A stretch of DNA of 64,000 nucleotides, from positions 1 through 64,000 of IMG/VR virus record IMGVR_UViG_3300035670_000135. One strand, 5' to 3'. This DNA comes from an uncultured virus (IMG/VR IMGVR_UViG_3300035670_000135) (Duplodnaviria; Heunggongvirae; Uroviricota; Caudoviricetes). Under the pieces are notes generated by a model. The model was not told the origin of the DNA. It ran no database searches and saw only the letters and a list, made by a program, of their open reading frames with translations. This document shows positions 58,783 through 64,000 of the stretch, piece by piece (position 1 is the stretch's first letter; each line of letters starts with the position of its first letter). The position numbers and the translations under genes are program-made.

Positions 58783-59319
58783 ATGGACATTGAATTAGCT
58801 GATCATTTTGATCGAATGAATAAGGTTGTTGAGGAATTACTTAAGGGAAATAACCCTACCCAGATTGCCGCCCTGACGGGTTTTAAGCGGGCAGAAGTGT
58901 TAGGGTATATAGATGAGTGGAAAGAGGTCGTTAAAAACGATTCTGGGGCCCGTGAAAGGGCAAAACAGGCCATCTCTGGAGCAGACCAACACTACGCTAT
59001 GCTTATTAAAGAGGCGTGGAAGACCGTAGAGGACGCAGATCAAGCAGGTCAATTAAACGTCAAGGCTACCGCCCTAAAATTAATTGCAGATATTGAAGGC
59101 AAAAGAATTGGCATGTTGCAAGAGGTTGGTCTATTGGACAATGTGGAATTGGCAAATCAAATTGCGGAGACGGAACGAAAGCAAGAAATTTTGGTTGGTA
59201 TACTAAAGGATGTCTCAGCAGAATATCCGCAAGTAAGAAAAGAAATTATGCGTAGACTTGCACAGATAACTGGAGTTGTAGAACCTATAGAGATAATTGA
59301 GGAAGCTAGTGGATCTTGA
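58783..59319 (+). CDS. Terminase small subunit (putative)
   Basis: N-terminal HTH (GNNPTQIAALTGFKRAEV) plus helical body; directly upstream of TerL. Confidence 0.7.
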   Translation: MDIELADHFDRMNKVVEELLKGNNPTQIAALTGFKRAEVLGYIDEWKEVVKNDSGARERAKQAISGADQHYAMLIKEAWKTVEDADQAGQLNVKATALKLIADIEGKRIGMLQEVGLLDNVELANQIAETERKQEILVGILKDVSAEYPQVRKEIMRRLAQITGVVEPIEIIEEASGS

Positions 59320-61099
59320 TTTTTCAGATCTCATTGATATCCTAGACGGAGAGGAATTTGATGAAAGACCAGTCGACTTACGAACATTTGTCACAGGAGC
59401 AAATTACCTTGGACTCCCGCCACTTTCGGAGTACCAACATACGCTCATCGAAAAAAGCTCTCAGATCTATAAAGAATCCACTCTTATTAAATTATTTGGA
59501 GAAGAAGAAGGCCGACGTCGCTTTAAGCAAACCTGTAACGAAGTAATTGCACAACTAGGAAAAGGTAGCGGCAAAGATTACTGCTCAACAATTGCAGTAT
59601 CTTACATGGTTTATCTCTTGCTTTGCCTGAAAGATCCAGCAACATATTATGGTAAACCCCCTGGAGATTCCATAGATATTCTTAACATTGCTATTAACGC
59701 ACAGCAAGCAAACAATGTTTTCTTTAAAGGATTCAAAACAAGAATAGAAAGATCACCTTGGTTTATTGGTAAGTATGAAGCAAAGGCTTCTGAGATGAAA
59801 TTTAATAAGGCAATAACTGTTCACTCTGGTCACTCTGAGCGTGAGGCGTGGGAAGGGTATAACGTAATAGCAGTTATCCTTGATGAAATTTCAGGCTTTG
59901 CCACAGAGAATACGACGGGGCATGACCAAGCAAAAACAGCAGATGCAATATACGATATGTATAGAGGATCTGTAGTTTCACGTTTTCCAGACTACGGTAA
60001 GGTTATTCTTTTGTCCTTTCCCCGTTTTAAGAATGATCCAATACAAAAGTTCTATGATTCTGTTATAGCTGAAAAAGAAGTAATCGTAAGAAATAAAGTC
60101 TTGAAGATGGACGAAGGACTACCAGACGGTACAGAGGGAAATGAAATTGAGGTGGAGTGGGAGGAAGATAATATTATCTCCTACAAGATACCTAAAGTTT
60201 ATGCATTGAAAAGACCTACGTGGGAAGTCAATCCAACTAAAACAATAGATAACTTCAAAGTAGAATTTTATAAGAACATGCCAGATGCCATGGGAAGATT
60301 TGCATGTATGCCATCAGAAGCAATTGATGCATTTTTTAAATCTCGTGAGAAGGTTGAGCGGGCATTTAATAATATGTCCTTAGCCGTAGATAATTTTGGT
60401 AGATTTGAAAACTGGTTTTCGCCAGACCCAGATAAAGAATATTTTATACATGTAGATCTTGCTCAAAAGCATGACCATTGTGCTGTGGCTATGGCACATG
60501 TTCAGAAATGGGTTAATGTTAAAGTGACCGATACTTATTCACAGCCCGCTCCAATTGTAGAAGTTGACGCAGTAAGATACTGGACACCAACTTCAGATAA
60601 ATCTGTAGACTTTACAGAAGTTAAAGACTATATATTATCTTTAAGAACAAAAGGATTTAAGATTCGTGTTTGTACATTTGACCGTTGGAATTCTCATGAC
60701 ATGATGCAACAACTTAAACAATATGGTATTAATACAGAAACTTTGTCTGTAGCTAAAAAACATTATGATGATATGGCAATGGTTATAGCTGAAGATAGGT
60801 TGAGCGGGCCACACATCAAGCTTTTAATTGATGAGCTCCTACAACTTAGAATTATGAGGGACAGGGTAGACCATCCAAGAAAAGGATCAAAAGACTTGGC
60901 GGATGCAGTTTGTGGGTCTATATATAATGCTATAAGTAGAACTAGATTTGAAAGTAATGAAGAAATTGATGTGCATACCTACGACTCATTAATGCGTAGG
61001 CCATCAAAAGAGCAAGATGAAATTGTATTAAATATGGTTAGGCCGCCAAGAATGCCTTCAAAATTGGCAGACGCTTTAGAGGGTATGGAGATACTATGA
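59297..61099 (+). CDS. Terminase large subunit
   Basis: GKGSGKD Walker A, VILDE Walker B, HVDLA and TFDRWNS nuclease motifs, DH...SKDLADA. Confidence 0.93.
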   Translation: MRKLVDLDFSDLIDILDGEEFDERPVDLRTFVTGANYLGLPPLSEYQHTLIEKSSQIYKESTLIKLFGEEEGRRRFKQTCNEVIAQLGKGSGKDYCSTIAVSYMVYLLLCLKDPATYYGKPPGDSIDILNIAINAQQANNVFFKGFKTRIERSPWFIGKYEAKASEMKFNKAITVHSGHSEREAWEGYNVIAVILDEISGFATENTTGHDQAKTADAIYDMYRGSVVSRFPDYGKVILLSFPRFKNDPIQKFYDSVIAEKEVIVRNKVLKMDEGLPDGTEGNEIEVEWEEDNIISYKIPKVYALKRPTWEVNPTKTIDNFKVEFYKNMPDAMGRFACMPSEAIDAFFKSREKVERAFNNMSLAVDNFGRFENWFSPDPDKEYFIHVDLAQKHDHCAVAMAHVQKWVNVKVTDTYSQPAPIVEVDAVRYWTPTSDKSVDFTEVKDYILSLRTKGFKIRVCTFDRWNSHDMMQQLKQYGINTETLSVAKKHYDDMAMVIAEDRLSGPHIKLLIDELLQLRIMRDRVDHPRKGSKDLADAVCGSIYNAISRTRFESNEEIDVHTYDSLMRRPSKEQDEIVLNMVRPPRMPSKLADALEGMEIL

Positions 61100-61367: not shown

Positions 61368-61685
61368 ATGGACGAGGATAGAGAAGACGAAATGCAGTTG
61401 GAACATTATCTAGAAATTGGTGCCATCAGTTTAGCAGGCATGGACGAAAATGGAGAAATTATTTACGCCATTGAGGATAAGGCAAAAGAAATTGCACCAG
61501 AACTTTGGGAAGCCCACATTAGATATGTAGACGAATCTCTTATGCAGCTTTACGAAAAAGGTTTATTGCAAGTAGAATATGATGAGAATCTTGAAGCTAT
61601 GCTTCACATCAGTCCAGAAGGACAAAAGATCGCAAAAGAAATGGGGCTGATAGAAATGAATCTACCAGAACCCCCTAACAATTAG
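61368..61685 (+). CDS. Hypothetical acidic protein
   Basis: SD AAGGA; 105 aa. Confidence 0.7.
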   Translation: MDEDREDEMQLEHYLEIGAISLAGMDENGEIIYAIEDKAKEIAPELWEAHIRYVDESLMQLYEKGLLQVEYDENLEAMLHISPEGQKIAKEMGLIEMNLPEPPNN

Positions 61686-61694
61686 GAGAATAAA

Positions 61695-61877
61695 ATGCCT
61701 TGGGAAATTAAACAAAACTTTGCAGGATGCAAAGGATATGCTGTAGTAAAGCAGGGATCAAACGAATTAGTAGGATGTCATGCAGGAAAATCAGCAGCCT
61801 CTGCCCAACTAAGGGCCTTATATGCCTCAGAGGCGGATGAGAAAAAGATGCACGACAAGAAGAAGAAAATTTACTAG
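61695..61877 (+). CDS. Small phage protein
   Basis: MPWEI...C.GYAVVK...VGCH...AQLRALYASE; SD AGGAG. Confidence 0.7.
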   Translation: MPWEIKQNFAGCKGYAVVKQGSNELVGCHAGKSAASAQLRALYASEADEKKMHDKKKKIY

Positions 61878-61903
61878 ACTTAAAAAATCTAATTTGCTAT
61901 AAT
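61875..61903 (+). promoter_or_regulatory. hsp20 promoter
   Basis: TAGACT-17 nt-TATAAT with TG extension. Confidence 0.7.
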
Positions 61904-61907
61904 ATAT

Positions 61908-61965
61908 GTGGGTCGCCAATAGGGGCCCACATATTAATTTATTCGCTTAAAGGAGGAATAAAATG
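61908..61965 (+). ncRNA. Putative ROSE-like RNA thermometer (hsp20 5' UTR)
   Basis: Two hairpins; in the second, UUUAUUCGCUU pairs with GAGGAAUAAA (SD) with a bulged G, matching the ROSE U(U/C)GCU motif. Confidence 0.65.
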
Positions 61966-62382
61966 GTAACAACATTTGCTATGGATCTTTTTAGAGATCC
62001 ATTTTTTATTGGCTTCAATCGTGAAGTAGAAAGACTAAACAATATCCATCGTGAGGCTACGGCCCAGTCTTTCCCGCCATACAATATTGTCAAGGTAGAT
62101 GAAGATTCATATCGTGTATCTTTGGCGGTGGCAGGATTTGATAAGAAGGATATTGAGGTCTCAGTAGATAATCAGACTCTTATTGTTAAGGGTGAAGTTA
62201 CTACAGAAGAGACTGGAGAAGTTCTTCACAAAGGAATTGCCGCCCGTAAATTTACACGCACATTTGCGCTTGGTGAATATATGGAGGTAGTCGGAGCGGA
62301 ATTTAAAAATGGCATGCTACACATTGATGTAGATCGTCTAATTCCAGAAGACAAAAAGCCAAAGACAATCAAGGTCAAATAA
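61963..62382 (+). CDS. hsp20: Small heat-shock protein (Hsp20/IbpA-like)
   Basis: FPPYNI, LAVAGF, LHKGIAARKFTRTF, NGMLHI, KPKTIKV. Confidence 0.95.
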   Translation: MVTTFAMDLFRDPFFIGFNREVERLNNIHREATAQSFPPYNIVKVDEDSYRVSLAVAGFDKKDIEVSVDNQTLIVKGEVTTEETGEVLHKGIAARKFTRTFALGEYMEVVGAEFKNGMLHIDVDRLIPEDKKPKTIKVK

Positions 62383-62437
62383 GGTATAATGGTTCTGTCC
62401 ATGTAGATGGACACGGGCCGAATAGTTACGCCTTAGG

Positions 62438-62467
62438 ATACACCTGAGCATGTGTATAAACTGCTCA
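62438..62467 (+). ncRNA. Putative H-type RNA pseudoknot in the leader of the FmdB-like gene
   Basis: S1 ATACAC/GTGTAT, S2 TGAGCA/TGCTCA, loops of 1, 1 and 4 nt. Confidence 0.6.
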
Positions 62468-62486
62468 TTAAAATTTAGGAGAGACA

Positions 62487-62669
62487 GTGCCAGTTTACGA
62501 ATATAAATGTGTTCTATGTGAACATGTTAAGGAAGTTACCAAGTCAATCAATGACGCATCAGTTGTTGAGCTTTGCTCCAATTGTGGTTCTGCAATGATC
62601 AAGCAGTTTGGCACATTTGGTATTCAGTTTAAAGGTTCTGGCTTTTACAAAACAGATAACGCTAAGTAG
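62487..62669 (+). CDS. FmdB-family zinc-ribbon protein
   Basis: MPVYEYKCVLC...CSNCG...FKGSGFYKTD. Confidence 0.88.
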   Translation: MPVYEYKCVLCEHVKEVTKSINDASVVELCSNCGSAMIKQFGTFGIQFKGSGFYKTDNAK

Positions 62670-62718
62670 TTCAATGTTATAATTAACTTGTTATAAGATT
62701 TATAACAAGGAGTTATAG

Positions 62719-64000
62719 TTGACTAGGACAAAAGCATGGAGATTATCATTAGCCTTTATATTAGGGTTTGGATGGCTATTTTTAACTCCTGCTCAAAGTA
62801 ATTTAGATCCACTGTCTGCCGCCGCTGCAGAGATACAAGAATTAAATGCCAGCGTACCAGACTTAAACTATAAAACAGAATTTCAATCATTAATTGATGT
62901 AGCAGAATCTGATTATGATGCTGCTGTTTCGGCAAAAGAAGACATGGACCAAGCTTCAGATGAATATGATCAGGCGGTAGAAACAGAGGCGGCTAAGCTT
63001 GAAGAAGTTAATATAGCACAATCAGAAGTAGATGGTCAAACAGTCACAGTTGAAGTAGCATTACAAGATAAAAATGATGCCCTACAAGACAAGAATGATG
63101 CTCAAGATGCTCTAGATGTAGCAAATATAAATTTACAGACCGCTCAAATAACAATAAATAGTGCTGGTAATCAGGGATGGCAATTTTCCGCATATACTTT
63201 AAATGGGGATAGAACTGCTGGGTCTTTATATTGTACTGGCGTAATTACCCAAGCCTACAAAAATATGCCAGTATGCGGTAGATATGAAAATCTGTTTGTA
63301 GTTTTTAGTGGAAAAGTAACAGCTCCAGAAGGAGTTAATCAGGTCTCATTTGCAGGGTACACAGATGATGGGTTTAGAATGTATGTAGATGGATCACTTG
63401 TAATTAATCAATGGCAGGAGCAAGGTTCTACTTGGAGTCCATATTACTACCACACCTTTACAGCAGAAGATAGAGTTATAGATGTTGTATTTCATTATTA
63501 TAATGGCGGCGGCCCAGGAGTATTTCATGTTGGCTGGGGCCATAGTGGAATATGGACTGGGGTTTCATCTTCTGCAATGTCATATGGGCAAGGAGCAACA
63601 CAGGCTCAGATAGATGCTTATAGTCAGGCGGTGGAAGAACAACAGGTAGCACAATCAAATTACAATCAGATGCTTGCTATATATAACAACAAGCTATCTT
63701 ATTATAATGAGCAGAATAATATATTGAATACATATAATCAAACTTTAAATACAAAAACTAATGAATATAATACTGCTGTATCAAATACCGCAAGTGCTTT
63801 ACAAAATAAAGAAGATAAAGAAGATGCCTATGACCAATCAATAATAGATGTAAATGATTCTATTGTTTCCGCCTGGGAATATTATAATAAACAATTGGCT
63901 ACAGAATTAGCTGCCGCTATAGCACAAGCATTAGCAAACCAACCACAGCCTGAGCCAACTCTTGAACCCACACCAGAGCCCACACCGCAGACAAGCCCAG
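62719..64000 (+). CDS. Secreted coiled-coil protein with PA14-like domain and Pro-rich linker (3'-truncated; not in ORF track)
   Basis: TTG start after AAGGAG; signal peptide MTRTKAWRLSLAFILGFGWLFLTPAQS; FAGYTDDGFRMYVDG...YYNGGGPG (PA14); PEPT repeats; open to the window end. Confidence 0.8.
   Translation, partial: MTRTKAWRLSLAFILGFGWLFLTPAQSNLDPLSAAAAEIQELNASVPDLNYKTEFQSLIDVAESDYDAAVSAKEDMDQASDEYDQAVETEAAKLEEVNIAQSEVDGQTVTVEVALQDKNDALQDKNDAQDALDVANINLQTAQITINSAGNQGWQFSAYTLNGDRTAGSLYCTGVITQAYKNMPVCGRYENLFVVFSGKVTAPEGVNQVSFAGYTDDGFRMYVDGSLVINQWQEQGSTWSPYYYHTFTAEDRVIDVVFHYYNGGGPGVFHVGWGHSGIWTGVSSSAMSYGQGATQAQIDAYSQAVEEQQVAQSNYNQMLAIYNNKLSYYNEQNNILNTYNQTLNTKTNEYNTAVSNTASALQNKEDKEDAYDQSIIDVNDSIVSAWEYYNKQLATELAAAIAQALANQPQPEPTLEPTPEPTPQTSP

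What the first reader, a model, noticed from the sequence alone, without database searches (positions are those of the whole stretch)
61898..61965. Phage-encoded ROSE-like RNA thermometer in front of hsp20
Seen: a promoter (-10 at 61898-903) gives a leader of about 55 nt that folds into two hairpins. Hairpin 1 is GUGGGUC-G-CC-AAUA-GG-GGCCCAC (61908-30). Hairpin 2 pairs UUUAUUC-G-CUU (61938-48) with GAGGAAUAAA (61953-62), covering the SD up to the AUG, with G61945 bulged opposite AGGA. Established: U(U/C)GCU pairing with the SD with a bulged G defines ROSE thermometers of bacterial small HSP genes. Inference: the phage gates its own chaperone by temperature at the translation level. Both hairpins carry a bulged G, which could alternatively be a repeated protein-binding site for sHSP autoregulation. 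I do not know of a characterised phage example, but could not search.
Basis: partly seen in the sequence, partly recalled or inferred. Interest (0 to 1): 0.8.

Follow-up and report, generated by a model that had tools for sequence, protein, structure and literature searches.

The report
ROSE-like RNA leader on phage hsp20
A freshwater phage puts in front of its own small heat-shock chaperone gene the same two-hairpin RNA leader that proteobacteria use to hide the ribosome-binding site until it gets warm, and many related phages keep it, but its response to temperature has not been measured.

Summary
In detail: TGcTATAAT promoter (61895-903), hairpin 1 (61908-30, bulged G61915), hairpin 2 (61938-62, UCGCU paired with the SD, bulged G61945), ATG 61963, IbpA-like hsp20. 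All 65 distinct leaders of 79 related viral loci plus the window have this architecture. The lower stem of hairpin 1 covaries (7 of 7 pairs). Its apex (bulged G, CC/GG) and the anti-SD U(C/U)GCU are nearly invariant. Hairpin 1 has the shape of hairpin I of Rfam ROSE (RF00435), and hairpin 2 that of the last hairpin of ROSE and of E. coli ibpA ROSE_2. Predicted stability of hairpin 2 (-5.0 kcal/mol) is close to that of the validated E. coli hairpin (-4.6). SAR11-family bacteria and the cultured phages Melnitz and P-SSM4 carry the same short form. The three Rfam ROSE models do not score it, but they also miss by-eye ROSE leaders of Sneathiella. RNA contigs from river metatranscriptomes cover only 61910 to about 62470, which fits the predicted start. 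Temperature response is inferred, not shown. Feedback by the sHSP itself is a live alternative or addition. This scan has noted phage ROSE-like leaders before on other DNA (62 findings), and I found no paper describing them. Verdict: a new member of a known kind.

The parts
61875..61880 (+). weak -35-like hexamer TAGACT, 17 nt before the -10
   Evidence: 10 of 12 matches in all. It is not conserved in relatives, so it is probably dispensable with an extended -10.
61895..61903 (+). extended -10 promoter TGCTATAAT
   Evidence: TGnTATAAT stands directly upstream in 63 of 65 distinct leaders. It is one of 9 TGNTATAAT sites on the + strand of the window.
61910..61910 (+). predicted transcription start (G, 7 nt after the -10)
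   Evidence: Inferred from promoter geometry. No RNA contig of 4 metatranscriptome runs extends upstream of 61910; their first laid bases are 61910, 61926, 61928 and 61928. This is a weak hint only.
61908..61930 (+). hairpin 1 (equivalent to ROSE hairpin I): lower stem, bulged G61915, CC 61916-17 paired with GG 61922-23, loop AATA 61918-21
   Evidence: The same architecture is in 65 of 65 distinct leaders. The lower stem has 7 of 7 pairs with changes on both sides. It matches the RF00435 hairpin I consensus.
61931..61937 (+). A/U-rich single-stranded linker
   Evidence: Its sequence and length vary among relatives.
61938..61962 (+). hairpin 2 (SD-masking hairpin): anti-SD UCGCU 61943-47 with bulged G61945, loop AAAG 61949-52, SD AAGGAGG 61950-56
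   Evidence: z -4.34. TCGCT is in 64 of 65 leaders and TTGCT in 1 of 65. A ROSE-like fold is the MFE in 63 of 65. The architecture is that of the E. coli ibpA final hairpin CUC[G]CUG..CAGGAG.
61963..62382 (+). hsp20 gene, 139 aa, IbpA-like small heat-shock protein
   Evidence: Pfam HSP20 1.4e-20. It is 42% identical to E. coli IbpA over 125 aa. The equivalents of R93, R97, aromatic 34 and the IXI/V motif are conserved in 72 of 72 distinct phage homologues; K98 is T or S.
61910..62472 (+). stretch covered by RNA-library contigs (apparent monocistronic hsp20 transcript)
   Evidence: contigs of 4 riverine metatranscriptome runs span 61910/61926/61928 to 62436-62472, with nothing laid on 61600-61895. 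Contigs cannot prove transcript ends.

Best explanation
The 53-nt leader of the phage hsp20 mRNA is a short, two-hairpin member of the ROSE type of translational control elements. Transcription starts from a host sigma-70-type extended -10 promoter right at the foot of hairpin 1. Hairpin 1 is a stable, G+C-rich 5'-terminal hairpin of the same shape as ROSE hairpin I. It probably stabilises the mRNA and helps the folding of the weak second hairpin. Hairpin 2 pairs the conserved UCGCU with the Shine-Dalgarno sequence, and a bulged G keeps the helix imperfect and weak (about -5 kcal/mol at 37 C). At low temperature the 30S subunit cannot reach the SD. With rising temperature hairpin 2 opens gradually and translation of the chaperone rises. 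The bacterial versions found here in the SAR11 family sit behind a sequence that looks like a heat-shock promoter. The phage keeps only the translational layer and drives it from an ordinary promoter. Shown here: the sequence features, their conservation and covariation, the likeness to validated elements, and the comparable predicted stability. Inferred: the start site, the melting in the physiological range and the effect on translation.
For: (1) Anatomy at the stated coordinates. (2) Conservation. Loci were chosen by Hsp20 protein similarity alone (80 loci, 64-100% identity). I read 79 of them plus the window (L044 was dropped because its gene start is cut off), which gave 65 distinct leaders. 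65 of 65 have hairpin 1 with a bulged G. 63 of 65 have the CC/GG apex, 57 of 65 a 4-nt loop of variable sequence, 64 of 65 TCGCT and 1 of 65 TTGCT, and 63 of 65 TGnTATAAT. (3) Covariation on a CM-made alignment of 64 leaders: 99.2% of cells paired against 91.9% in shuffles. All 7 lower-stem pairs of hairpin 1 have changes on both sides. 0 of 500 shuffles reach the observed value on any measure, and slid partners give 55-78% paired. A second set gives the same result. The U-G wobble next to the bulge (48 of 65) argues for RNA on the + strand and against a DNA palindrome. (4) Likeness to known elements. The RF00435 consensus hairpin I is stem, bulged G, CC, tetraloop, GG, stem, and its last hairpin is UUGCU with a bulged G paired to GGAGGA. 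E. coli ibpA ROSE_2 (100.4 bits) has CCU[G]UCC..GGAAGG and CUC[G]CUG..CAGGAG. (5) Predicted stability of the isolated hairpin 2 is -5.0 kcal/mol at 37 C, against -4.6 for the experimentally validated E. coli final hairpin, with nearly the same computed melting curves. Across the 65 leaders the median is -3.2 and the range -0.7 to -6.2. (6) The protein is of the IbpA type, the class that ROSE elements control (PMC10474464 passages). (7) The same short form stands upstream of IbpA-like genes in SAR11-family genomes (8 of the 11 genomes hit, out of 116 searched), in a Rickettsiales MAG, and in the cultured phages Melnitz and P-SSM4. (8) RNA-library contigs include hairpin 2 and the 3' arm of hairpin 1 and do not extend upstream of 61910. 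This speaks against a start downstream of 61938.
Against: No Rfam ROSE model (RF00435, RF01832, RF02523) matches the leader, even at E<=10. This test is weak, however. The by-eye ROSE leaders of Sneathiella also fail the gathering score (0 ROSE matches in 20 loci; 29.3 bits against 45 for L092). My own model R1 does not find the E. coli element either. The anti-SD/SD helix shows no change on both sides in the model-fitted register (2 pairs invariant, 3 varying on one side), so its pairing rests on conservation and not on covariation. The nearest-neighbour model keeps the SD mostly paired up to 50 C (unpaired 0.20 at 4 C, 0.32 at 50 C). It therefore predicts no sharp opening in the lake range, but it behaves the same way for the validated E. 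coli element. Strong SD occlusion is not unique in this window (6 of 46 starts under 0.05). In the B-type relatives, a fold that includes the first 45 coding bases prefers a pairing of the linker with codons 3-6 that frees the SD. The SD-masking fold is thus not always the global optimum. No temperature experiment exists for any of these phage leaders.
Confidence: 0.62

Rival explanations
1. The leader is mainly a feedback site for the small heat-shock protein, not a thermometer. Oligomers of the phage Hsp20 (or of the host's IbpA) bind the stem-loops and shut off translation. When unfolded or aggregated proteins titrate the sHSP away, translation is released. The phage would then match chaperone output to the protein-folding load of the infection. 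This could also act together with thermosensing, as in E. coli.
For: E. coli IbpA represses its own translation through the stem-loops of the ibpA 5' UTR (bioRxiv 10.1101/2020.04.20.050740, passages). Binding needs R93, cationic R97/K98, an aromatic residue at 34, and oligomerisation through the C-terminal IXI motif (PMC10474464, passages). In 72 of 72 distinct phage homologues the R93 and R97 equivalents are R, position 34 is Y or F, and the IXI/V motif is kept. The apex of hairpin 1 (bulged G, CC/GG) is nearly invariant while its loop and lower stem vary. This is more sequence constraint than a mere folding helper or 5' stabiliser would seem to need.
Against: The K98 equivalent is T or S in 72 of 72, and K98A abolished repression in E. 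coli. Which part of the UTR IbpA touches is not known from the passages I read. No binding was or could be tested here. The conserved residues may be kept for chaperone function.
Confidence: 0.2
2. The leader is a constitutive expression module without a switch. Hairpin 1 is a 5'-terminal stabiliser that protects the mRNA from 5'-end-dependent decay. Hairpin 2 merely damps translation to a fixed level.
For: Hairpin 1 starts 0-7 nt after the -10 box, that is, at the very 5' end of the RNA. A stabilising role of hairpin I was proposed for Pseudomonas ibpA (PMC3669281, discussion passages). RNA contigs cover hsp20 but not its neighbours, which would fit an abundant or stable mRNA. The folding model predicts little opening up to 50 C.
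Against: A generic stabiliser does not need an invariant bulged G and CC/GG apex, nor an invariant UCGCU. The same motifs define elements for which temperature control has been shown experimentally. Only this one of the 9 TGNTATAAT promoters in the window is followed by a hairpin of this kind.
Confidence: 0.12
3. The inverted repeat 61904-61934 acts in DNA or in transcription: as an operator for a repressor overlapping the start site, or as a terminator or attenuator of transcripts coming from upstream.
For: The repeat abuts the -10 box and is a perfect 9-nt palindrome arm in this phage.
Against: In relatives the arms change sequence freely while keeping pairing, with G-U wobbles that are mismatches on the other strand. 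The conserved apex is not palindromic. No run of T follows the hairpin, and the terminator scan does not list it. It also lies downstream of its own promoter.
Confidence: 0.03

Closest known systems
Short two-hairpin ROSE-like RNA thermometers of Pseudomonas ibpA (Krajewski et al. 2013, PMC3669281; Rfam ROSE_3, RF02523)
   Same: A 5' UTR of about 60 nt with two hairpins. Hairpin I is G+C-rich and stable. The SD lies in hairpin II, imperfectly paired with U(U/C)GCU. The AUG is left outside the hairpin, and the gene is an ibpA-type sHSP (passages).
   Different: RF02523 gives no match on the phage record. The Pseudomonas genes are read from sigma-32 promoters according to the paper, the phage gene from TGnTATAAT. 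I could not compare the hairpin I sequences, because no Pseudomonas leader was fetched.
ROSE elements of alpha-proteobacteria (Rfam RF00435)
   Same: Hairpin I of the consensus (stem, bulged G, CC, tetraloop, GG, stem) and the last hairpin (UUGCU with bulged G against GGAGGA) have the shapes of the phage hairpins 1 and 2.
   Different: The consensus has a further long hairpin between them and a longer last hairpin that includes the AUG. The phage leader has neither, and RF00435 does not score it.
E. coli ibpA thermometer (Rfam ROSE_2, RF01832)
   Same: The final hairpin CUC[G]CUG-AUUU-CAGGAG is almost the B-type phage hairpin CUC[G]CU-GAAA-AGGAG. The hairpin before it also has a 5' bulged G (CCU[G]UCC..GGAAGG). 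Predicted stability is -4.6 against -5.0 kcal/mol, and the proteins are 42% identical.
   Different: E. coli is described with three stem-loops and a sigma-32 promoter. RF01832 does not match the phage leader (its only match on the record is 12 bits, elsewhere). My phage model does not match E. coli.
Leaders of IbpA-like genes in SAR11-family and Rickettsiales genomes
   Same: The same two-hairpin form: hairpin with U[G]CC..GGG, linker, UUGCU paired with AAGGAG. They match the phage model at 23-30 bits.
   Different: UUGCU instead of UCGCU, and a CCCCACAT box upstream instead of TGnTATAAT. Its likeness to a sigma-32 -10 box is recalled, not tested.
RNA thermometers already reported in phages: lambda cIII, SPbeta blyA (fourU), a fourU element before a sigma-70 gene in a gut Caudoviricetes (PMC11182007, passages)
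   Same: A phage-borne leader thought to gate translation by temperature.
   Different: These are of other structural classes (an alternative-structure switch, fourU) and stand on other genes. None is ROSE-like or controls a chaperone.

Membership tests
ROSE-like RNA thermometers | Lies in the 5' UTR of a small heat-shock gene of the proteobacterial IbpA/HspA type | tested here: met
   Pfam HSP20 1.4e-20; 42% identity to E. coli IbpA; the leader lies between the promoter and ATG 61963.
ROSE-like RNA thermometers | Two to four hairpins, the last one holding the SD | tested here: met
   Two hairpins are the MFE and the centroid. This holds in 65 of 65 distinct leaders for hairpin 1 and in 63 of 65 for hairpin 2.
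ROSE-like RNA thermometers | Conserved U(U/C)GCU imperfectly paired with the SD | tested here: met
   UCGCU at 61943-47; TCGCT in 64 of 65 and TTGCT in 1 of 65; 100% of cells paired in the anti-SD helix. No change on both sides was seen, so the support is conservation, not covariation.
ROSE-like RNA thermometers | Predicted bulged G (or G-G mismatch) opposite the SD | tested here: met
   G61945 is bulged in the MFE. C-type relatives fold with a G opposite G 1x1 loop. These are predictions; the non-canonical geometry itself is not testable here.
ROSE-like RNA thermometers | 5' hairpin like hairpin I of RF00435 (stem, bulged G, CC, tetraloop, GG, stem) | tested here: met
   Compared with the consensus printed. 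CC/GG apex in 63 of 65 and 4-nt loop in 57 of 65.
ROSE-like RNA thermometers | Match to an Rfam ROSE covariance model (RF00435, RF01832, RF02523) at the gathering score | tested here: not met
   There is no match on the leader even at E<=10, and none at gathering score in the window. The models are narrow: Sneathiella leaders with UUGCU also fail (29.3 bits against 45).
ROSE-like RNA thermometers | Temperature-dependent melting of the SD hairpin and temperature-dependent translation | not testable with these tools
   Only computed stabilities are available: -5.0 kcal/mol against -4.6 for the validated E. coli hairpin, with similar computed melting. The folding model shows no sharp transition for either.
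IbpA-type self-repression through the 5' UTR | Residues needed for mRNA binding in E. coli IbpA: R93, cationic 97 and 98, aromatic 34, C-terminal IXI | tested here: inconclusive
   R93, R97, aromatic 34 and IXI/V are kept in 72 of 72. Position 98 is T or S in 72 of 72. The requirements are taken from passages of PMC10474464.
IbpA-type self-repression through the 5' UTR | Binding of the sHSP to the leader RNA and repression of its translation | not testable with these tools
   No tool here predicts or measures protein-RNA binding.

The most novel reading that the evidence does not exclude
The nearly invariant apex of hairpin 1 (bulged G flanked by a Y-G pair and the two C-G pairs, under a loop of any sequence) is shared by alpha-proteobacterial ROSE hairpin I, SAR11-family leaders and well over a thousand viral contigs. 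It may be the docking site for IbpA-type sHSP oligomers. The phage leader would then work chiefly as a sensor of protein aggregation. Free sHSP keeps hsp20 mRNA silent, and the flood of unfolded phage and host proteins late in infection, not water temperature, releases it. This would give a function to the long-unexplained 5' hairpins of ROSE elements. It would also show a phage tapping into the host's proteostasis feedback.
Probability: 0.2. Interest if true: 0.7.

Novelty: new member of a known kind. Interest (0 to 1): 0.55.

Why it matters
ROSE elements are textbook bacterial RNA thermometers. The reported phage thermometers are few and of other classes. Here a ROSE-type leader sits on a phage chaperone gene and recurs in an estimated 1200 stored stretches of IMG/VR under a strict pattern, and in cultured phages of OM43 and Prochlorococcus. 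If it works as in bacteria, many aquatic phages adjust chaperone synthesis after transcription, without the host's heat-shock sigma factor. The phage set is also a large natural mutational series. It shows which parts of the element are free to vary (loops, lower stem, linker) and which are not (bulged G, CC/GG, UCGCU). This bears on the unexplained role of ROSE hairpin I, and these short leaders (48-57 nt) are convenient parts for temperature-controlled expression.

Tried and rejected
(1) Rfam. There is no gathering-score match in the window. At E<=10 on 61800-62100 the best matches were rli26 (20.3 bits) and freshwater-2 (RF02980, 19.7 bits against a gathering score of 49.9), with no ROSE family. 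I regard the freshwater-2 match as chance, driven by the AAGGAG..AUG end. Searches gave the same negative result on the whole virus record. (2) A search for other copies of the promoter-plus-hairpin word in the window gave only the site itself at 0 mismatches. The 102 matches at up to 3 mismatches are near the chance level (mean 81.8). (3) MAFFT alignments A1 and A2 put the clades out of structural register, so I did not use them for pair counts. I built a model from 29 B-type leaders (A3) and used model-made alignments, which lean towards the structure. (4) Weak secondary matches of R1 inside or after hsp20 (L060 3385-3439 and similar, E 0.04-0.13) turned out to be the 3' end of the hsp20 reading frame, not a leader. 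(5) A third hairpin that would hold the AUG (61963-82) is predicted in the window but is not kept among relatives (median AUG unpaired 0.44), so I rejected it as part of the element. (6) The bacterial source of the gene remains open. The 5 best genome-collection matches (56-70%) are short MAG contigs assigned to unrelated phyla and carry the phage-type leader, so they are probably phage DNA. True cellular relatives are 38-47% identical (Sneathiella, Pelagibacteraceae, Rickettsiales). The host of the phage stays unknown, and Pfam annotation of 57 ORFs gave no host marker. (7) Vibrio phage PWH3a-P1 hsp20 has no such leader. (8) Metatranscriptome contigs left 61600-61895 and most of the stretch beyond about 62470 without cover. 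Absence of cover proves nothing by itself. (9) Earlier notes of this scan by place and by sequence gave nothing.

Full report
What is there. The window is part of a 77.6-kb virus record, with all genes on one strand. It encodes portal, capsid, a 2355-aa tape measure, DnaB, primase, Pol III alpha, RecA and a terminase. Its G+C content is 37.9%. After a 60-codon ORF that ends at 61877 come TGCTATAAT (61895-903), a hairpin, an A/U-rich linker, a second hairpin that ends one base before ATG 61963, and a 139-codon gene. The product of that gene matches Pfam HSP20 (1.4e-20) and is 42% identical to E. coli IbpA. The leader folds better than shuffles: z -2.94 with 2 of 200 shuffles as good, and for the hairpin 2 segment z -4.34 with 0 of 200. 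The hsp20 SD is the second most occluded of 46 in the window, although 6 of 46 are strongly occluded.

Relatives. A protein-based scan of IMG/VR returned the 80 best of 589 confirmed loci, at 64-100% Hsp20 identity. I read the upstream DNA of 79 of them (L044 lacks its start) plus the window, which gave 65 distinct leaders. All 65 have hairpin 1 in one architecture: a lower stem of 5-13 pairs, a bulged G, two pairs (CC/GG in 63, CT/GG in 1, TC/GA in 1), and a loop of 4 nt in 57, 5 nt in 3 and 6 nt in 5. The pair next to the bulge is U-G in 48 and C-G in 17. The anti-SD is TCGCT in 64 and TTGCT in 1, and TGnTATAAT precedes 63 of 65. Loops, linker and lower stem vary freely. I built a covariance model from 29 leaders. 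It found 64 leaders at E<=0.031 among 88 sources, with the window at 23.4 bits. On that alignment 99.2% of cells pair (shuffles 91.9%; slid partners 55-78%). All 7 lower-stem pairs show changes on both sides, and 0 of 500 shuffles reach the observed value on any measure. The apex pairs and the five anti-SD/SD pairs do not covary: they are invariant or vary on one side only. A second set, chosen by a DNA pattern so that its apex and anti-SD are fixed by construction, repeats the lower-stem result. These alignments are fitted to the model and lean towards the structure. The anchor-based parse, which used no model, shows the same thing.

What it is like. E. coli ibpA carries ROSE_2 (100.4 bits). 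Its last hairpin is CUC[G]CUG-AUUU-CAGGAG, and the hairpin before it is GACCU[G]UCC..GGAAGGUC. The Rfam ROSE consensus (RF00435), printed against a Sneathiella leader, begins with cCgGcc[G]CC-uuau-GGggCcGg and ends with UUGCU, with a bulged G, paired to GGAGGA. The phage hairpin 1 (GUGGGUC[G]CC-AAUA-GGGGCCCAC) is therefore a ROSE hairpin I. Hairpin 2 is a short ROSE SD hairpin, and the middle hairpin is missing. Published definitions fit (passages of PMC3669281; PMC11182007): two to four hairpins, the SD imperfectly paired with U(U/C)GCU, and a predicted bulged G. In Pseudomonas a two-hairpin form of 61-62 nt works, its hairpin I is stable and its hairpin II alone is sufficient. The isolated phage hairpin 2 is predicted at -5.0 kcal/mol at 37 C, and the validated E. 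coli hairpin at -4.6, with similar computed melting. Among the 65 leaders the range is -0.7 to -6.2 with a median of -3.2, and 63 of 65 fold in the ROSE-like way.

What speaks against. None of the three Rfam ROSE models scores the leader. I give this limited weight, because the same models miss Sneathiella leaders that have all the motifs. The models are long, clade-specific and penalise the missing hairpin. The folding model predicts only a slow rise of SD accessibility, from 0.20 to 0.32 between 4 and 50 C, but it is just as flat for E. coli. With coding sequence added, B-type relatives prefer another fold that frees the SD. Function has not been measured anywhere.

Where else. The closest cellular Hsp20 relatives are alpha-proteobacterial: Sneathiella 43-47%, Pelagibacteraceae 40% and Rickettsiales 38%. 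Sneathiella has three-hairpin ROSE-like leaders. The Pelagibacteraceae and Rickettsiales MAGs have the two-hairpin form. The phage model hit 11 of 116 genomes of the family of the Pelagibacteraceae MAG. 8 of these hits lie before an IbpA-like gene, behind a CCCCACAT box, and 3 are unrelated. The cultured phages Melnitz (host OM43) and P-SSM4 (host Prochlorococcus) carry the element behind TATAAATA-like boxes, at 18.5 and 22.1 bits. Vibrio phage PWH3a-P1 does not carry it. 119 of the 120 are followed by IbpA-like N-termini, judged by eye from roughly 40 residues each.

Expression. Contigs of four riverine RNA libraries cover 61910, 61926, 61928 and 61928 through to 62436-62472, and none of the neighbouring genes within 61600-62700. 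Contigs of a related variant are deeper. This fits a separate, abundant hsp20 transcript that starts at or before 61910, which is the start predicted from the promoter. Contigs cannot prove ends, DNA can be present in RNA libraries, and the four studies may be one campaign.

Mechanism. I take the leader to be a ROSE-type translational gate: heat opens hairpin 2 (confidence 0.62). The chief rival, which may equally be a second layer, is repression by the sHSP itself, as in E. coli. The phage proteins keep the R93, R97, aromatic-34 and IXI/V equivalents in 72 of 72 but have T or S at 98. A constitutive stabiliser-plus-damper and a DNA-level role are less likely (see the rival explanations).

Novelty. 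Searches of the paper library found no description of a ROSE-like element in a phage. These were listings and abstracts; 0 papers with cyanophage, hsp20 and RNA thermometer. A 2024 paper counts lambda cIII, SPbeta blyA and a sigma-70 fourU element as the phage thermometers known (passages). A paper on cyanobacterial sHSP thermometers does not mention phages. Subscription journals are not covered by these searches. Earlier agents of this scan have reported the same kind of leader on phage hsp20, dnaK and groES/groEL in other genomes (62 findings). I confirmed only the hsp20 part, and the presence in cultured phages.

Noticed in passing
window 61981-62008: A terminator-like hairpin lies inside the hsp20 reading frame, 19 nt after the ATG: ATGGATCT-TTTTAG-AGATCCAT followed by TTTTTT. 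The GGATC..GATCC core and the T run are kept in nearly all homologues. They encode the conserved D-L-F..D-P-F-F, so the hairpin may be a by-product of the protein sequence. An early attenuator is not excluded.
   Followed up: partly
window 62675-62721: A second TGTTATAAT promoter is followed by a 10-bp hairpin CTTGTTATAA-GAT-TTATAACAAG. Its 3' arm overlaps the SD (AAGGAG) of the TTG-started ORF at 62719, which has a weak PA14 match. This is another leader that may mask its SD, and it is not ROSE-like.
   Followed up: no
window 62385-62472: A TATAAT at 62385-90 follows directly after the hsp20 stop, with a hairpin TGTCCATGTAGATGGACA after it. The RNA contigs that cover hsp20 end at 62436-62472, near a second inverted repeat at 62438-57. 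The 3' end of the hsp20 transcript may lie here.
   Followed up: no
L008, L010, L012-L023 and other B-type loci, about 30 nt before to 20 nt after the hsp20 ATG: In B-type leaders the linker AAATGAAACT is complementary to codons 3-6 (AGTTCATTT). A fold that includes the coding start prefers this pairing and frees the SD. By eye, the same linker holds an ATG that opens a short upstream frame ending in the TAA that overlaps hsp20 codons 2-3 (read, not tested).
   Followed up: partly
L008, L010, L014, L016-L018, L020-L024, L034, L036, L046, L047 and others, up to 110 nt upstream of hsp20; L084 817-1429: In many relatives the hsp20 promoter follows directly on a tRNA gene: T-arm-like sequences, and three tRNAs at gathering score in L084. 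In the window it follows a 60-codon ORF instead.
   Followed up: no
L243 (IMG/VR locus): The same leader (GCCTAC[G]CC-TTCG-GGGTAGGC, then ACTCGCTTATTAGGAG) stands before an ORF whose first 40 residues do not look like an sHSP. Earlier notes of this scan report such leaders on phage dnaK and groES/groEL. Only 150 nt of flank was held, so the gene was not identified.
   Followed up: no
L084-L088 (genome collection): Five short MAG contigs assigned to Methylococcus, Sediminibacterium, Acidimicrobiaceae, Polynucleobacter and Flavobacterium carry the phage-type hsp20 (56-70% identity) with the phage-type promoter and leader. They are probably phage DNA binned with bacteria.
   Followed up: partly
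window 59297-61099: The terminase gene is 64-68% identical in DNA over about 1.4 kb to terminase genes of 127 Streptomyces and 3 Rhodococcus phage records of roughly 130 kb, although this phage is A+T-rich. The window also encodes a Pol III alpha subunit, DnaB, primase and RecA.
   Followed up: no
window 61961-62009, runs X15-X17: In the river RNA libraries, contigs of a related phage are deeper (27-42) than those of this phage (10-13). Their leader reads ..TTATTCGCTCAAGGAGGAAT, a variant with a shorter loop (table 7).
   Followed up: no
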